Source: an uncultured Acidobacteriota bacterium (GTDB lineage: Bacteria; Acidobacteriota; Terriglobia; UBA7540). From it: a DNA stretch of 64,000 bases. Position numbers: made by a program. The DNA is taken from NCBI GenBank assembly GCA_963804995.1, contig CAWDSK010000006.1, positions 1 to 64,000 on the forward strand, written 5' to 3'. Below are positions 27,001 through 42,000 of this stretch, piece after piece. Each line of letters opens with the position of its first letter. Positions within the stretch are counted from its first letter, which is position 1.

Positions 27001-30000
27001 GTAACAACTAGGAATCCGCGGGTGAACTTCTTGCTTCCGGGCCTTCGCACGGCGTTAATCGTCTGCCACGCGATCAGCATGGCCATAACCGTCGTCTTGC
27101 CGGCTCCGGTCGCCAGCTTCAGCGCCAAACGCGCCAAGCCGGGATTGGCATCATGGTTCGCGTTCTCCAGGTGACCGAGAAACTTCTTTCCCGCCGCCAG
27201 CGCGGGCGCCACTTCGATCAACCAAACGGCGACTTCCACGGCTTCGACCTGGCAGAAGAAGGGCCGGATGCTGCTGAACGGGTGGTGCCGCCAGTGCTGC
27301 AACAGCCGGGCGGTTTCCGGCGTAACGTGCCAGTCGCTCGGGTCTTTTAATTTGCGCCACGGATCGATGTACTGGCGGAGCTCATTGATGATGGGCGTGG
27401 GGTCGTATTGCTGCGCCTGACTGGACAGACCTTTCCCTTCATCGAACACCATGGCCTTCTGTTCGGCAGCGGCTTTGTGCTTTCGCGCCTTGGGCACGGG
27501 CACAATGAACTCGGCGCGACGCCGGCTTTCAATTATCCGTTGAGTCGGCTGCCCCAGCGCATCAAGCTCCCAGTGTCGTACAGGGTACTCATAGGGAGAA
27601 TTCAAGATGGGCTTCTTGAAAAAGTCGTTATCCATGTTCGTCGAAACCGCTCAAGCAAGGAGTAGAAAGGCCAGACAGATATTACTCCGCGACAGCCAAC
27701 TTTGCCAGTCGTTCCGGGGTCGCCATTGCATAGGGGCAAGGGACTCAATTACGGCGGTGGACGGCGCGAAGGCTCACCTGATGAAGAATCTCAGCTTTTT
27801 GTTGTACAGGAGGGCGCGTTTAGAGTTCGACCACACCAACGCCAGGTTCCCCACGTAGAGTCTGGTCGTGACAGCCTTTCCATCCGTGAGTTACTTTCAG
27901 TCGCGCTGCCCACAGACTGGTGATTGTGGGGCGAGGGATTCGGCTTCTCGTATCATTGCAGAATCAGAAGGTTACGGCTAATAGGTGAGGTTTCTGGGCG
28001 GCAAGTCGCGAAATCTACTGACTTCCCCATCAGTAGCACCACTTTAAAATCCCGGTAAATGCTGATCTCCCCACACACGTTTGTGCGAATTGCGTGCGGC
28101 ACCCCACCAGAAGTGTACTCGTGGCCCCACGATTAGCCAGTTCTTCGGATGCGACCTGCCAGTCCCGAGGTCGGTATCGCTCACAACTATTCGAGGAGAT
28201 TCGACGCGGGTACCCTGGTTTCTCCCAGATGCGAGGATAGTCTGCGTGGCGTAAAGCAGCACGACGAGGGCAACTCTCGAACTTCAATAAGCCACCAGAA
28301 GCTGTTCCAGCCGGGCAACGAGGCCCAATGGAGTGGAGGAGCGGCCGGCAATAATGGTCGTCCGTTTATTGCCATGGCTTTAACCTGCCTGCGAGAGTAT
28401 CTCGCTGGCGGCCCGCGGTAAATTTCTACCGACAACGATTTCGTCGACCAACCGAGTTGGGACAGAGGAGTATTCTTTCAGGTCATACAATACGGGGTCG
28501 GCAGGGTCATCCGGGGCCAGCGGTGCACTCAAGCCAATTACCAACTGCCCCGCACCCTTTCTCGACAGAAGGATCGGGGCAATGACATGTCCCAATCCTG
28601 GCACATCGAGTTGGGCATTGCGCGTGAATACGACGCCTTCATCAGCCTGCCTTTCTAAGTCCTTGAAGAGAACATCCGTCGAAGCTCTGAGTCTTGCCTC
28701 TGTCCACTTCGGGCGTTCGCCGGTGAGCAGATAACGCAATAATGCTGCGCCCAATAGACGGTCGAGCAATTCGTGTTCAAACTTGTTCTTGTAGCTACGC
28801 AGGCAACGATAGCAGGACCGGTCGCAGTCGCAGCGCTCTAGGATGTCCAATGCTTGCTCGAACACCGGAAGTCCGCTTGCGCCTATTTGCTTTACAAAAC
28901 CGGCCCCCCCGGGGAGGGTGTCATAGAGGTAAATCTCAACCTCTTCGCCGCACCGCCCCAAGGGCGTGAGCGCAGGCCGATATTCCGCCTGAACTTCGGA
29001 TGGTTCGATTCGCAGCGTGCTACATGCTGCCTTTGAGATCGCTTCACTTAACGTCCTCAAGGCAATGTTCGTAGCTAAAAGCGAAGGGGCAAGTGATACT
29101 GGGGATTGCACCCGGAGGGAAATCAGTAGAACATCTGTGATGAAGTCTGTTCCAAGCACGATGCCCTTCGCTGTTCGTCCGCCTTCGCACATTGGTTCTC
29201 GGTCATCTGGAAATGGCTTCTGGTGTGCACTTCCAAGGCCCGGGGTCAAAGTAATAGCAGGCTCAATGCGACCACACAGAGTGCAGTACGAATACCCCTC
29301 ATCTTTGGGTCCGCGGTTCGTGACAAGCAAATGCTCCTTTAGGTGGTGGACGCGAATCCGTTCATTAACTAACGCCCATTTGGACTCATCAGCAGGGGTT
29401 GGGGCGACCAGCCGGGCTCGAAGTTGCGTAACTCTTCGCCGGCTGATCATCTGGAGAAACACCTTCATCTAGGAACACGGGATGGGCAAAACCGGGTGGC
29501 CGTAGCCAGTATTTTGCCTTTCCAAATGTTCCGATGCCGCCACATGCAGGACAATCTCTCGACTCGCCCCTTTCTCCTGCAGTAATCGCAATCGTCCGAG
29601 CATATTGGCAAATATTGCACTCATAGTAGAGCCTTCTGTTTTGCCAAGCTGAAGCACGCTCACGGCCAACTGGTGAATACACCGCGCCTGACGTAAACCT
29701 CTTACTGGCGATCCACACCTCCTTTCCCGGTGCGTATTGTGTGAGCGCGACCGATAGGCCCTGGGAAGGAGTGAACTGAAACTCGGGCCGGAAACGCGTC
29801 GATCTATCTCTGTCGAAAACGTAGAAGGTGGCCACATCGGTGGGAAAGGCGTAGCGCGGCAGAACGCCTTTGTAAAGCAACCGATCGAGTAAGTTCTCAT
29901 TGACCACATCGGCGCATGGAACTTCTTCTCCCTCTTCTGAGGGGACTTCCGAAACTAAAGAATCGTCCTCATCATTCTGCTTTACAGCCGTGGCCGATGA

Positions 30001-39000: not shown

Positions 39001-42000
39001 CGTCGGCGAAAGGTGATTCGAGCCGAACCCGAGCGACCGGCCCAACAATTCGTATTGCACTCCCGTTGCGGGCTTTCCGCCGACCTCTTCCGCAGGTATC
39101 CTCAAACGGTTGTATTGGCTGGAAGCGACGCCGTACAAACTTGTGGTCCCAAGTAGGACGAGTTGCGGCGTACGAAGGGCTGGTTTTCCGGCCATGGAGG
39201 AAGCAATAATGCTGGGAGTATTCCCATACCGCCGTTCGTACGCTACCGCAACCTCTGGGCTCGTAACGAGCATGGCGACCAGCTTTCCTCCGAGGAGAGG
39301 GTTATATGGAGCCACTGCGCCGCAAACCATGATATCTAGCATGTCGATGCCGATGTGACTGGCCTTCATATGCCGGATGATCACCTGGATGCCCCTTCGT
39401 CCTGGACTTGTCTTCAGTGCTAGGCCGAGAGTGTGTTTCGTGGGGGACTTGAATCCGGCTTCAAGTAAATTGAGTCTTGCTGCGAGGAGTTCGGCTAAGA
39501 CTTTTGCCCGCTTCGCCCTGAATAAGTACGATCGGGCTTCCTGCTCCCAGTCCTGTGTTGACTTCTTGTGTTGGCTTGACTTAGGGAATTTCCTATGCCA
39601 CTGACGAGCTAAGACGGCTTCCCTTAGTAGGGTGTCGACGATCTTTGGCGATGGGCTAAGCAGGTCTCTGCGCCTGACAATTTGTTCCTCTAGAAAGTCA
39701 TTGATATACACTGCCTTGACAAGTCGACTCCATGACTGCCAAATCCACTCCGCCCACCGTTTGGTCGGTTTTTGTTCGAGGCTCTCGATAAATCTGGCCG
39801 GCGTCCACCCTATCCAATTATCGCGCGGCGTCAATTGCACCACAGCACTCCCGAGTGCAGCGATGCCGATGATCGGATGGTTTTCGGCGGCCGCGTCCCG
39901 GACCAGAAGGCAGACTTGTCGTCCGGGCACGCTGTGGTATGGAATGACCCACGTATGTCTGAAGTACCGCCAAATATCGGCTAACCTGAGGCCAGTGAAT
40001 TCACAGGTTGCGCCTCGCTCGACGACTTGAATGTAAGGATCAATGCAGGCTCGAAGTGACTCCAGCCTCTTGGCTTCGTTCTCGCAATGGTCTATGGCCC
40101 GGAGTTTAGCGCTTAAGTCGGGTCCATCGCGCACAAGGGATAGGACCGACACCCAGCCGTTTGCTCCGACCCGTTTTGTCTCCATGCTTCGGATGAATTG
40201 CCGTGTGGCTGGAAGACAAAGCTGTGAGTCTCGTTCGAAAAGGTGGGCCTCCCGCACGCGTTGCTTCTCTAACGAAAACGAACTTGAGTCCGCTTCTGGG
40301 GGACAGCCCCAAAGCTGGGGCCCCTCCACGCGGAAAGTCCACCCTTGAACCCGAAGGTCGCAAAGAACTGAGACGCAGACCCGGAGTTCGTGGTTGCACT
40401 TGCCGGCTTCCTCTGCGGCTCTGAAGGCAGTTGTGCGAAGGGCCGCCGTTTCATTTCTGTCCGCGATCTTCCCTAGCTTTCGCGCAAACTCGAGCAGAAG
40501 GGCCCTTGCCTTGCCGTCGGAAAGGAGATTGGGCTTAAGTGGAACACAGTCTTTGTGCTGCTCGCTCAACGCTAGCTCCCGAGAAAGGCCGCCAGAATAT
40601 TACTCCAAGCTATGCGCTTTCGGTTGTACCAATATCGTTGCTGGGGATTGACCGCTTCTGCCTCGGCTCTTGCCAGCGAAAAAAGAAGGCAATCGATGCT
40701 TACTCGCAATTCCCTGGAACCCTCTCCGCAGAGTGGGGCATAGACACGGTCGAAAAAAGGATGGTTACGGTTAAGGACCAACACGAGGGCGCCACGCTGG
40801 CGCTTCAAGGAATAAAAGGCCTCTTCGCGTAAGGGAAGAATAGATAGAGCGTATTTGGGGTTTCGATCCGTGCCTCTAGAAAGGGAAGAGAGCATCGGAG
40901 GATGCCGCCCTCCTGCCTTCTCTGGAATCGGGGGAAGGTATTTATCCCTTTGAGAGAGAATCTGAGCCGCGGGAGTCTTGGGGCGATCGTTTACCTTCGA
41001 ATATGCACGCCGGACGCGCGAATTCAGCGTGTGTGCGATGGCTTCGAGGTCTGCAGTTAGAATAGCTTCCAATTCGGGGCTCGGGTGAATAGCCTGCTTC
41101 GTGTAAGTCGGCCGGAAGTACTCGTCCAACTCCGCTCCGAAGGCTATCTCACATCGCCACCAATCGTCATAGTTTTCTCTTCGCTTCTTTCCCATGAAAT
41201 GCCAACCGTAACTGACCTCGCGACCTGCCCTTACAAGGGATGCGCCAGCGCCTTTGACAATGCCGTACCGGCGCTTGTCCTCAACAGGCAGATCGTGCCA
41301 ATCGGCGACTGGGAGTTCCGAAAAACGAACACAAATAGCTGAATTCCTCCCTGGATTGCCTGGCAGCCGGAACTTGTACGTGAGGGGCTTGGCGTAGATC
41401 TTGGCGCCGGTGAGGGGCGTGTCATGGTGGCAGAAGAGGGGATCAACGGGGACCACTCGTGTCCCGTTGATTGAGATCTCGACCCCGGCCCAGATTGAGT
41501 ATCGAAATATCCTTCCGATTTGGTTGCGCAGCTTTTCCCCTGAGACCGAGGTTGGCGTCTTTTCCAGCCTGTCGCATTTCCGCCAAACGACTAACGTGCC
41601 TGTTGCGCCTGAATAGGCTCGTGCCCATCCGGGCAATTTGGCGCTTCGGGGAGGCGGGATCTCCCGCATGGTGCCGTCGGCGATTTCGTCTACATCCAAA
41701 TACGAGTAGAGCGTACCGCCAGATCTTCTCCACGTGTAGATTTCCAGCCTGCGGGCTTGACTCAGTGAACTGGAGGGTAATCCCATGCCAAAGCGACCGG
41801 GGCCTGTCCGGTCATTGAATCGCGTTGTGCCCCCGAACTGTAAGGCCGCCCTGAGAGTGCGGTCGTCCATTCCGCAACCGTTGTCTAGGGCTGCAACCGT
41901 GACGCCGTGGTCCTTTTGAGATGTATCTTCTGTTGTAATGAAGACGCGCACTTTACTTGATTTGGCCTGAATGGAATTGTCCAAAAGTTCTGCAATTGCA

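What a model noticed while it worked through the whole genome (the two positions that open the first line are those of the whole stretch)
28380..40569. Four-gene Druantia variant DruA-X-DruD-DruE in which one ~960-aa beta-sandwich-repeat protein replaces DruB and DruC; co [...]
The defence island at the start of C6 holds a Druantia-like operon with DruA (g04355), DruD (g04353) and the DruE helicase (g04350-g04352, broken in this assembly), but where type I Druantia has DruB and DruC it has a single 961-aa protein (g04354, 'X') that matches no Pfam, NCBIfam, Swiss-Prot or PADLOC model. X belongs to a large family that is found almost only in this operon, in the fixed order A-X-D-E, in Acidobacteriota, Chloroflexota, Planctomycetota, Pseudomonadota, Gemmatimonadota, Spirochaetota and others. 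It defines a distinct, widespread Druantia subtype that PADLOC-type finders would call incomplete.
Evidence so far: PADLOC: g04355 DruA1 E=2e-175, g04353 DruD1 E=3e-104, g04354 none even at E<=10; 0 of 15 aligned family members hit any PADLOC model. Family size: 1138 clusters at E<=1e-5 among 8000 scored candidates; the 120 listed are mostly 950-1000 aa and none bears a functional name. 93 loci in the species-genome collection, best 80 fetched: of 66 with >=2.2 kb upstream and >=2.5 kb downstream, tblastn finds DruD in 66, DruE in 64, DruA in 59, all three in 57, and the order A-X-D-E in 57 of 57; median gaps A-X 100 nt, X-D 134 nt. PADLOC DruB1 (PDLC00004) and DruC1 (PDLC00007) give no six-frame hit in this genome or in 4 other genomes with the operon. 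AlphaFold2 model of X (15-sequence alignment, mean p [...]
(Added by a program. Inside this text positions count along the whole contig: contig position 1 is position 1 of the stretch shown here. "Call 12" and the like, gene names such as g00115 and contig names such as C1 are that model's own, and its searches are not shown. The text may have been shortened before it was handed on; [...] marks where a part breaks off. The agent that wrote the report below was given it as the finding of a first reader that could run no searches.)

Follow-up and report, generated by a model that had tools for sequence, protein, structure and literature searches.

The report
Unrecognised Druantia variant with DruH-like partner
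This is a real and widespread but undescribed version of the Druantia anti-phage system, in which a large unknown protein laid out like the type III sensor DruH sits where DruB and DruC normally are; this genome's copy has a broken helicase gene.

Summary
On the minus strand lie DruA (38587-40569), an unannotated 961-aa protein X (34993-37878), DruD (33908-34984) and a DruE helicase in three pieces (28380-33918). X matches no PADLOC, Pfam, NCBIfam or PDB sequence.

Four corrections:
1. The system here has five genes. A GHKL/MzaB-like ATPase (40572-42086) abuts DruA, and it accompanies the long DruA form in 34 of 37 related loci.
2. The order A-X-D-E is not fixed. The ATPase + long-DruA pair lies apart from or opposite to X-D-E in 18 of 37 long-DruA loci.
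3. X does not merely replace DruB and DruC. X-DruD-DruE is a separate lineage: DruE is 33% identical to canonical DruE, and DruD belongs to a distant subfamily. Short DruA, by contrast, is 75% identical across both architectures.
4. X shows no detectable similarity to DruB or DruC. Its predicted layout (helical N-domain, Ig-like beta-sandwich domains, helical C-domain) parallels DruH of type III Druantia. Sequence evidence for homology with DruH is only marginal.

druE here carries a CGA>TGA change and a +1 insertion. Both are absent from a 99.2%-identical relative and from four metagenome assemblies.

Verdict: a new variant of a known kind, of moderate interest.

The parts
40572..42086 (-). 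GHKL-type ATPase (MzaB-like, HATPase_c_3), 504 aa. Its stop codon abuts the DruA start. It is the partner of long-form DruA.
   Evidence: PADLOC MzaB E 1.8e-14. Pfam HATPase_c_3 E 4.7e-19. It lies next to long DruA in 34 of 37 long-DruA loci and next to none of 34 short-DruA loci.
38587..40569 (-). DruA, long form (660 aa from a TTG start; DUF4338/DruA domain at residues 411-594)
   Evidence: PADLOC PDLC00001 E 1.9e-175 over profile positions 40-666 of 675. Pfam PF14236 E 1.1e-35.
37879..38586 (.). 708-nt non-coding spacer between DruA and X
   Evidence: Conserved in L003 (8 differences, one 1-nt indel). No Rfam match. No sigma-70-like promoter or intrinsic terminator match. Spacers in other loci with long DruA upstream on the same strand range from about 60 to 2200 nt.
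34993..37878 (-). X: 961-aa protein of unknown family. Helical N-domain 1-246, linker, Ig-like/beta-rich region 285-760, helical C-domain 778-952.
33908..34984 (-). DruD, X-associated subfamily (358 aa from the ATG at 34984, 8 nt after the X stop codon)
   Evidence: PADLOC PDLC00010 E 3.9e-104 and PDLC00012 E 2.7e-84. Profile against canonical DruD: hhalign E 5.9e-4 over 220 columns.
28380..33918 (-). DruE, a YprA/MrfA-like SF2 helicase of the type I kind, interrupted by an in-frame TGA at 30457-30459 and a +1 insertion at 29422
   Evidence: PADLOC PDLC00013 across the three pieces. Pfam DEAD and MZB domains. Lesions defined against L003. Contigs of 4 of 4 metagenome runs carry the uninterrupted allele.

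Best explanation
This is a member of an undescribed but widespread architecture of the DruE-centred Druantia anti-phage family.

Shown:
- The conserved core is a tightly packed block X-DruD'-DruE'. Here 8 nt separate X and DruD, and DruD and DruE overlap.
- The block is joined to DruA in one of two forms. Short DruA sits directly upstream. Long DruA comes with its own GHKL ATPase gene, either upstream (as here) or elsewhere nearby and inverted.

Inferred:
- DruE' is the DNA-processing helicase core, as in other Druantia types.
- X is the subtype-specific partner that senses infection or binds DNA. It would play the role DruH plays in type III, using a helical N-domain, a set of Ig-like domains and a helical C-domain.
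- DruD' is a distant relative of canonical DruD, of unknown activity.
- DruA (+ATPase) is a portable module shared with canonical type I.

This genome's copy is probably inactive, because druE carries a nonsense codon and a frameshift, unless these are assembly errors.
For: Gene identities.

Linkage: X is directly upstream of DruD in 79 of 80 DruD-seeded loci. All 74 loci with >=3 kb upstream hold a full-length X, 67 of them in one open frame. By record titles these loci span Acidobacteriota, Chloroflexota, Planctomycetota, Pseudomonadota, Actinomycetota, Myxococcota, Desulfobacterota, Gemmatimonadota, Nitrospirota, Omnitrophota, Spirochaetota and Patescibacteria.

Annotated example: Nitrosococcus watsonii pNWAT01 reads DruA / hypothetical 955 aa / hypothetical / helicase. 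That 955-aa protein is 32% identical to X, E 2e-138.

ATPase pairing with long DruA. The same pair also occurs with DruE but without X or DruD on Paracoccus and Leisingera plasmids.

Separate lineage of the block: DruA is 75% identical, DruE 33%, and DruD gives no BLASTP hit between the Nitrosococcus X-type system and the canonical Ralstonia and P. putida systems. The canonical systems use PDLC00005, PDLC00006 and PDLC00009.

Resemblance to DruH:
- X model: helical 1-246, linker, beta-rich 285-760, helical 778-952.
- My E. coli DruH model: helical 1-258, linker, beta-rich 272-820, helical 834-1095.
- Preprint 10.64898/2026.05.12.724681, section 13 read: DruH has helical N- and C-terminal regions flanking Ig-like domains 257-464, 465-631 and 632-748, and is proposed as the phage sensor with dimer-dependent nuclease activity.
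- Both models draw the same kind of PDB matches, arrays of Ig-like or macroglobulin domains, and share entries such as 5jpm_A, 4a5w_A, 8coe_C, 9flw_A and 4rtd.
- ESM Atlas: for X residues 1-250 the four best named clusters are all YjiT_N/STY4851 (the DruH family), cosine 0.87-0.88.
- hhalign of 249 X sequences against two acidobacterial DruH gives one colinear alignment of 844 columns, P 0.022.
- In L006 a 68-residue DruH N-terminal remnant (E 3e-11) lies immediately before X.
Against: No phage test exists for any member.

Homology of X with DruH is not established:
- 0 of 26 X members hit any PADLOC model, including the 13 DruH3 models, at E<=10.
- hhalign against E. coli-type DruH profiles is non-significant: E 0.12, 0.43 and 0.39, while a reversed-sequence control scored 0.1.
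- HMM searches in both directions found nothing.
- 0 of the 240 listed X relatives carry the precomputed Pfam YjiT domains, against 116 and 118 of 120 DruH relatives.
- Secondary-structure alignment of the N-domains is only modestly above element-shuffled controls (z 2.3; 10 of 500 shuffles reach it), and the C-domains are not above them.
- Atlas scores below 0.9 are leads only.

Ig-like arrays are common folds, so the shared PDB matches are weak evidence.

The local druE is broken, so nothing can be said about activity in this organism.
Confidence: 0.6

Rival explanations
1. X is a strongly diverged fusion of DruB and DruC, so the operon is ordinary type I Druantia with two genes merged.
For: X occupies the position of DruB+DruC between DruA and DruD. 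Short DruA is 75% identical between the two architectures. Remote homology below the reach of profile methods cannot be excluded without fold comparison.
Against: - hhalign of the 26-sequence X profile against Ralstonia DruB and DruC gives probability 0.1%.
- BLASTP of Nitrosococcus X against DruB and DruC of two canonical systems gives only chance hits.
- No X member hits the PADLOC DruB or DruC models.
- P. putida DruC gives SMC/JetC/LmuB-type coiled-coil hits. X has no such hits, and its model has no long coiled coil.
- DruB+DruC total 1100-1183 aa, against 961 aa for X.
- DruD and DruE differ as well, which a simple fusion does not explain.
Confidence: 0.1
2. X is an unrelated, independently recruited accessory protein. 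It is homologous to neither DruB/DruC nor DruH, and the shared layout with DruH is convergence or chance.
For: All sequence-based comparisons with DruH are non-significant or marginal. None of the 240 listed relatives carries a YjiT Pfam domain. Helical domains flanking Ig-like arrays are a common arrangement (notes).
Against: - The Atlas picks the DruH family for the N-domain.
- The helix-by-helix order of the N-domains lines up.
- The best hhalign solution against acidobacterial DruH is colinear end to end.
- X occupies the same place in a DruE operon as DruH.
- A DruH remnant lies next to X in L006.
Confidence: 0.35
3. The interruptions of druE are assembly or sequencing errors, and the local system is intact and active.
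For: The genome has 9 contigs for 7.55 Mb, which suggests a long-read metagenome assembly (my inference), a type prone to single-base errors. A 99.24%-identical relative has druE as one frame. Contigs of 4 of 4 peat or wetland runs show G at 30459 (plus strand) and lack the extra base at 29421/2.
Against: Those contigs carry all 35 differences of the sister strain. They therefore represent another strain and do not test the window's own reads. A C>T change that creates TGA is not a typical indel-type error, and the inserted T lies in a run of only two T.
Confidence: 0.3

Closest known systems
Druantia type I (DruA-DruB-DruC-DruD-DruE; e.g. Ralstonia solanacearum UW163 pUW163a, P. putida pKF715A)
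   Same: DruA is present (short form 75% identical across architectures). DruE best matches the PADLOC DruE1 model. A DruD-like gene lies directly before DruE. The system sits in a defence island or on a plasmid.
   Different: There is no DruB or DruC, and X sits in their place. DruD belongs to another subfamily (PDLC00010/12 against PDLC00009; hhalign E 6e-4). DruE is only 33% identical. A long DruA with a GHKL ATPase is an optional form.
Druantia type III (DruH-DruE)
   Same: A ~1000-aa partner gene lies upstream of DruE, with a helical N-domain, Ig-like central domains and a helical C-domain (preprint 10.64898/2026.05.12.724681, section 13). The Atlas points to the YjiT_N family for the N-domain of X.
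   Different: X does not hit any DruH model. DruD lies between X and DruE, and DruA is present. DruE is of the type I kind: it scores 1286 bits on DruE1 against 336 on the best DruE3 model. Genuine type III systems occur separately in the same phylum (2 of 301 genomes).
GHKL ATPase + long DruA + DruE + NERD helicase loci (Paracoccus versutus pTAV4, Leisingera sp. S132 plasmid)
   Same: The same ATPase + long-DruA pair and a DruE1-like helicase.
   Different: They have no X and no DruD. A NERD/UvrD-type helicase follows DruE.

Membership tests
Druantia (DruE-centred defence systems) | Large YprA/MrfA-like SF2 helicase DruE with a DUF1998/MZB zinc module | tested here: met
   PADLOC DruE1 PDLC00013: E 0, 5e-80 and 1e-82 for the three pieces. 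Pfam DEAD E 1.5e-19 and MZB E 7.9e-14. The gene is interrupted twice in this genome.
Druantia (DruE-centred defence systems) | Demonstrated protection against phage | not testable with these tools
   No experiment on any X-type operon was found in the papers searched.
Druantia type I (canonical) | DruA (DUF4338) | tested here: met
   PDLC00001 E 1.9e-175; PF14236 E 1.1e-35.
Druantia type I (canonical) | DruB present | tested here: not met
   No ORF of the operon hits a DruB model. X profile against Ralstonia DruB: hhalign probability 0.1%. PDLC00004 was not found in the own genome. Canonical DruB is recognised by PDLC00005, which X does not hit.
Druantia type I (canonical) | DruC present | tested here: not met
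   No hit to PDLC00006 or any other DruC model. X profile against Ralstonia DruC: hhalign probability 0.1%.
Druantia type I (canonical) | DruD present | tested here: met
   PDLC00010 E 3.9e-104. This subfamily is only distantly related to canonical DruD PDLC00009.
Druantia type III | DruH (YjiT family: YjiT_N and YjiT_2nd domains) next to DruE | tested here: inconclusive
   Against:
- No DruH3 PADLOC hit in 26 X members.
- 0 of the 240 listed X relatives carry PF27201 or PF27205.
- hhalign is non-significant to marginal.

For:
- Same domain layout.
- Atlas N-domain hits to YjiT_N at 0.87-0.88.

Limits:
- The Pfam YjiT models are not in the local library.
- The solved DruH 9tud is not retrieved by a genuine DruH model either, so the fold library could not test this.
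Druantia type III | DruE of the type III clade | tested here: not met
   The window's DruE scores 1285.7 bits on DruE1 against 335.7 on the best DruE3 model.

The most novel reading that the evidence does not exclude
X is a far-diverged member of the DruH/YjiT sensor family. 'Type I-like' and type III Druantia would then share one core, a DruH-like sensor plus the DruE helicase. DruD and the portable DruA (+GHKL ATPase) module would be add-ons. The Ig-like middle of X would be the fast-evolving receptor for phage proteins. In support, relatives exist that keep only the X N-domain and change the rest (G148 and G260). If true, DruH is not specific to type III, as currently written, and the Druantia classification would be reorganised around sensor-helicase modules.
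Probability: 0.4. Interest if true: 0.7.

Novelty: new variant of a known kind. Interest (0 to 1): 0.55.

Why it matters
Druantia is one of the commoner helicase-based phage defences, and only type III has a mechanism so far.

- **Reach of the variant.** It holds 239 DruD-positive loci in one-genome-per-species data and more than 1500 50%-identity protein clusters for X. It is spread over at least a dozen phyla.
- **Likely under-detection.** Its central protein is in no family library tested here, so finders that require DruB and DruC would probably under-call it. I could not run PADLOC or DefenseFinder system rules to check this.
- **Modularity.** A near-identical DruA serves two very different downstream blocks, which shows that the family is built from exchangeable modules.
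- **A testable lead.** The possible link of X to DruH gives a way to ask how the multigene Druantia types sense infection.

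Tried and rejected
- **Fold searches for DruH.** Foldseek on PDB, VIA second look and VIA wide with the X model returned only Ig/FnIII/macroglobulin-type matches to residues ~461-681 and no DruH. 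A control with a genuine E. coli DruH model did not retrieve DruH 9tud either. The library therefore cannot test the link, and the absence means nothing.
- **Pfam YjiT models.** These are not in the local Pfam library.
- **DruB census.** PDLC00004 found nothing in 301 genomes of the own phylum or in 401 Gammaproteobacteria. It later turned out that canonical DruB is PDLC00005, so these counts say little about canonical type I.
- **Route to E. coli type I.** A blastn search of E. coli genomes with Nitrosococcus druE DNA found nothing.
- **Spacer features.** The Rfam scan and the promoter/terminator scan of the DruA-X spacer found nothing.
- **DruD function.** The DruD' profile against PDB sequences and Pfam gave nothing usable.
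- **Plasmid head-count.** There are 5 records with X (2 lineages) against 2 with canonical DruC, too few to rank frequencies.
- **Own-strain test.** The metagenome contigs hold the sister strain only, so they do not test the window's own druE lesions.
- **Earlier notes.** The earlier-findings look-up returned nothing for this place.
- **Complex prediction.** I did not use it. I have no basis beyond gene adjacency for choosing which X domain would touch DruD.

Full report
**What is there**

On the minus strand the window holds a compact gene row:
- A 504-aa GHKL-type ATPase, 40572-42086 (PADLOC MzaB E 1.8e-14; Pfam HATPase_c_3 E 4.7e-19).
- Long-form DruA, 38587-40569 (PDLC00001 E 1.9e-175; Pfam DruA).
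- A 708-nt spacer.
- X, 34993-37878. This is the 961-aa form, equal to P0001; the ORF runs up to a GTG at 37920.
- DruD, 33908-34984 (PDLC00010 E 3.9e-104).
- DruE in three consecutive open frames, 30457-33918, 29389-30366 and 28380-29468. Together they cover PADLOC DruE1 positions 3-1772 and carry Pfam DEAD and MZB domains.

X has no match in PADLOC, Pfam, NCBIfam or PDB sequences. This holds for X alone and for X as a 26-member family. Among the 26 members, Pfam and NCBIfam each gave only two single-member hits at chance level.

The surroundings are a defence island:
- SIR2-APAZ/pAgo fusion, 9964-13119.
- AbiE pair, 13414-15193.
- NERD/UvrD helicase with an HEC-06/Orf5-like gene, 17509-21701.
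- Type III restriction-modification pair, 21760-27635.

**Is the association real?**

The X family is large. There are 685 clusters at E<=1e-5 among 8000 scored candidates. A second search from the Nitrosococcus member gave 1734 at E<=1e-10. A 26-sequence profile found 1573 representatives of 50%-identity clusters at E<=0.001.

To avoid circularity I seeded on DruD rather than X. A three-sequence DruD alignment found 239 relatives in the one-genome-per-species collection, and the best 80 were fetched.
- X lies directly upstream of DruD in 79 of 80. The exception, L078, has only 81 nt upstream.
- All 74 loci with at least 3 kb upstream hold a full-length X, 67 of them in a single open frame.
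- By record titles the loci come from at least a dozen phyla.

An annotated RefSeq example is Nitrosococcus watsonii plasmid pNWAT01, which reads DruA, 'hypothetical protein' (955 aa; 32% identical to X, E 2e-138), 'hypothetical protein' (DruD) and 'DEAD/DEAH box helicase'.

*The system has two forms.*
- Short DruA (~410 aa; 34 loci) always sits directly upstream of X and never has an ATPase neighbour.
- Long DruA (~660 aa; 37 loci, one of them cut) is preceded by the GHKL ATPase in 34 of 37. The other three run off the fetched DNA.
- The ATPase + long-DruA pair lies upstream on the same strand in 19 loci, downstream on the opposite strand in 15, upstream on the opposite strand in 2, and downstream on the same strand in 1.

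The window therefore carries a five-gene version, and the order A-X-D-E is not fixed. The same ATPase + long-DruA pair also occurs next to a DruE1-like helicase without X or DruD on Paracoccus and Leisingera plasmids.

*The whole X-DruD-DruE block is its own lineage.* I located canonical five-gene type I systems on Ralstonia solanacearum UW163 pUW163a and on P. putida pKF715A. UW163 is named as a complete type I carrier in PMC7251935 (passages read). Their genes hit PDLC00002 (A), PDLC00005 (B), PDLC00006 (C), PDLC00009 (D) and DruE1.

Comparing the Nitrosococcus X-type system with these canonical systems:
- DruA is 75% identical, the same as between the two canonical systems.
- DruE is only 33% identical, against 71% between the canonical pair.
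- DruD gives no BLASTP hit.

A 20-sequence profile of X-associated DruD aligns to canonical DruD over 220 columns at E 5.9e-4, and canonical DruD touches PDLC00010 at E 2e-5. The two DruD forms are therefore probably distant homologues.

**What is X?**

*Not DruB or DruC, as far as sequence can tell.* hhalign of the X profile against Ralstonia DruB and DruC gives probability 0.1%. BLASTP gives only chance hits.

*Predicted structure.* The AlphaFold2 model (mean pLDDT 78.2, pTM 0.45) has:
- A helical N-domain, 1-246.
- A low-confidence linker.
- A beta-rich region, 285-760.
- A helical C-domain, 778-952.

*The lead to DruH.* The ESM Atlas placed X nearest to ~950-970-aa clusters in which 10-21% of members carry the Pfam YjiT_N and YjiT_2nd domains. 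For X residues 1-250 alone, the four best named clusters are all YjiT_N/STY4851, at cosine 0.87-0.88.

YjiT is the family of DruH, the partner of DruE in type III Druantia. In preprint 10.64898/2026.05.12.724681 (passages and section 13 read) DruH has N- and C-terminal helical regions that flank Ig-like domains 257-464, 465-631 and 632-748. The authors propose it as the phage sensor with dimer-dependent nuclease activity. Preprint 10.64898/2026.05.12.722862 (passages read) reports it as an ATP-inhibited ssDNA binder.

My model of E. coli DruH is helical 1-258, linker, beta-rich 272-820 and helical 834-1095. That is the same order and nearly the same boundaries as X, with helices that line up one by one in the N-domain.

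*Tests of the link.*
- E. coli-type DruH profiles against X profiles: not significant (E 0.12, 0.43 and 0.39; a reversed control gave 0.1).
- HMM searches in both directions: nothing.
- PADLOC's 13 DruH models recognise acidobacterial DruH at E 1e-65 to 1e-109 but hit no X member.
- None of the 240 listed X relatives carries the precomputed YjiT Pfam domains, against 116 (YjiT_N) and 118 (YjiT_2nd) of 120 DruH relatives.
- Against two acidobacterial DruH proteins found in 2 of 301 genomes of the phylum, hhalign gives an end-to-end colinear alignment of 844 columns at P 0.022.
- Secondary-structure alignment of the N-domains reaches z 2.3 against shuffled elements. The C-domains do not rise above the controls.
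- A solved DruH exists (9tud), but even the genuine DruH model does not retrieve it from the fold library. The structural test could not be done here.
- In L006 a 68-residue DruH N-terminal remnant (E 3e-11) lies immediately before X, which hints at cassette exchange at this position.

I conclude that X works like DruH with moderate probability. Homology remains open, at about 0.4.

**Further variants seen**
- In two Acidobacteriota genomes the ATPase + long-DruA pair is followed by a 1031-aa protein that shares only the N-domain of X (E 5e-37) and a short C-terminal stretch. An SNF2-type helicase comes next, and the row converges on a DruE1-like gene with a NERD helicase.
- Haloarchaeal plasmids carry yet other genes between DruA and DruE.

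The DruA/DruE family is thus a set of exchangeable modules.

**State of this copy**

Against L003 (99.24% identical over 14,261 nt) the window's druE has CGA>TGA at 30459-30457 and an inserted T at 29422. L003 reads through as one frame.

Contigs from 4 of 4 peat or wetland metagenome runs carry the uninterrupted allele. They also carry all 35 other sister-strain differences, so they represent the other strain and do not test the window's own reads.

The local system is probably inactive. An assembly error is not excluded.

The 708-nt DruA-X spacer is conserved in L003. It holds no Rfam match and no promoter- or terminator-like site. Its length lies within the 60-2200 nt range seen in other long-DruA loci.

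**Known or new?**

Searches of the paper library found no description of this architecture, of X, or of the ATPase + long-DruA pairing:
- Terms Druantia/DruB/DruC.
- Druantia/DruE/DruA.
- YjiT/DruH.
- 'Druantia type V', 'Druantia-like', 'Druantia subtype', 'variant'.

I also read passages of three sources:
- The PADLOC paper (PMC8565338), whose only new Druantia type is type IV.
- The YprA-family preprint (PMC12458937), which does not discuss the accessory genes of type I.
- The 2024 preprint on type I methylation (10.1101/2024.04.14.589459).

Doron et al. 2018 and the supplementary tables of these papers were not seen. They may list such loci under type I, because PADLOC's DruA and DruD models already fit them end to end.

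I classify the finding as a new variant of a known kind.

Noticed in passing
window 9964-13119 (-): 1051-aa SIR2-APAZ/short-pAgo fusion (PADLOC pAgo PDLC02384 E 0; Aga_SIR2 E 3e-201).
   Followed up: no
window 13414-15193 (-): AbiEii (E 3e-82) and AbiEi (E 1e-40) toxin-antitoxin-type abortive infection pair.
   Followed up: no
window 17509-21701 (-): NERD/UvrD-like helicase (697 aa), overlapped at its start by a 700-aa HEC-06/Orf5/SspE-like protein. Possibly a two-gene defence unit.
   Followed up: no
window 21760-27635 (-): Type III restriction-modification pair: Mod (PDLC03632 E 0) and a 1021-aa ResIII helicase-endonuclease. It lies directly downstream of the broken druE.
   Followed up: no
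window 46763-47923 (+): 386-aa protein with a prokaryotic-viperin-like match (pVip E 9e-19).
   Followed up: no
L006 6673-7005 (+): An open frame encoding a 68-residue match to the N-terminus of DruH (E 3e-11) ends just before the X start codon. It looks like a scar of exchange between a type III and an X-type cassette.
   Followed up: partly
L081 2037-5279 and 7047-9962 (+): Mycobacterium sp. E2733 carries two X-family genes in the same orientation upstream of DruD (E 8e-177 and 3e-202).
   Followed up: no
L096 4673-14518 (-) and L097 5952-15788 (+): Two Acidobacteriota genomes carry GHKL ATPase + long DruA + a 1031-aa protein sharing only the N-domain of X + an SNF2 (DpdE/DrmD-like) helicase. 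In L096 this row converges on a DruE1-like gene followed by a NERD helicase.
   Followed up: partly
L085 4356-15880 and L086 3213-16016 (+): Paracoccus versutus and Leisingera plasmids carry GHKL ATPase + long DruA + a ~2050-2090-aa DruE + a NERD/UvrD helicase, without X or DruD.
   Followed up: partly
L087 5234-13430 and L088 2376-13418: Haloarchaeal plasmids carry a DruE1-like helicase preceded by unmodelled 355-608-aa proteins with only weak DruD-like hits (E 1e-6). In L088 a long DruA lies divergently upstream.
   Followed up: no
L089 6415-10856 (E. coli K-12 yjiT-yjiV): K-12 yjiT (505 aa) and the pseudogene yjiV are the truncated remains of the DruH-DruE pair. That pair is full-length DruH (1096 aa) plus a frameshifted helicase in strain ECONIH1 (L090).
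   Followed up: partly
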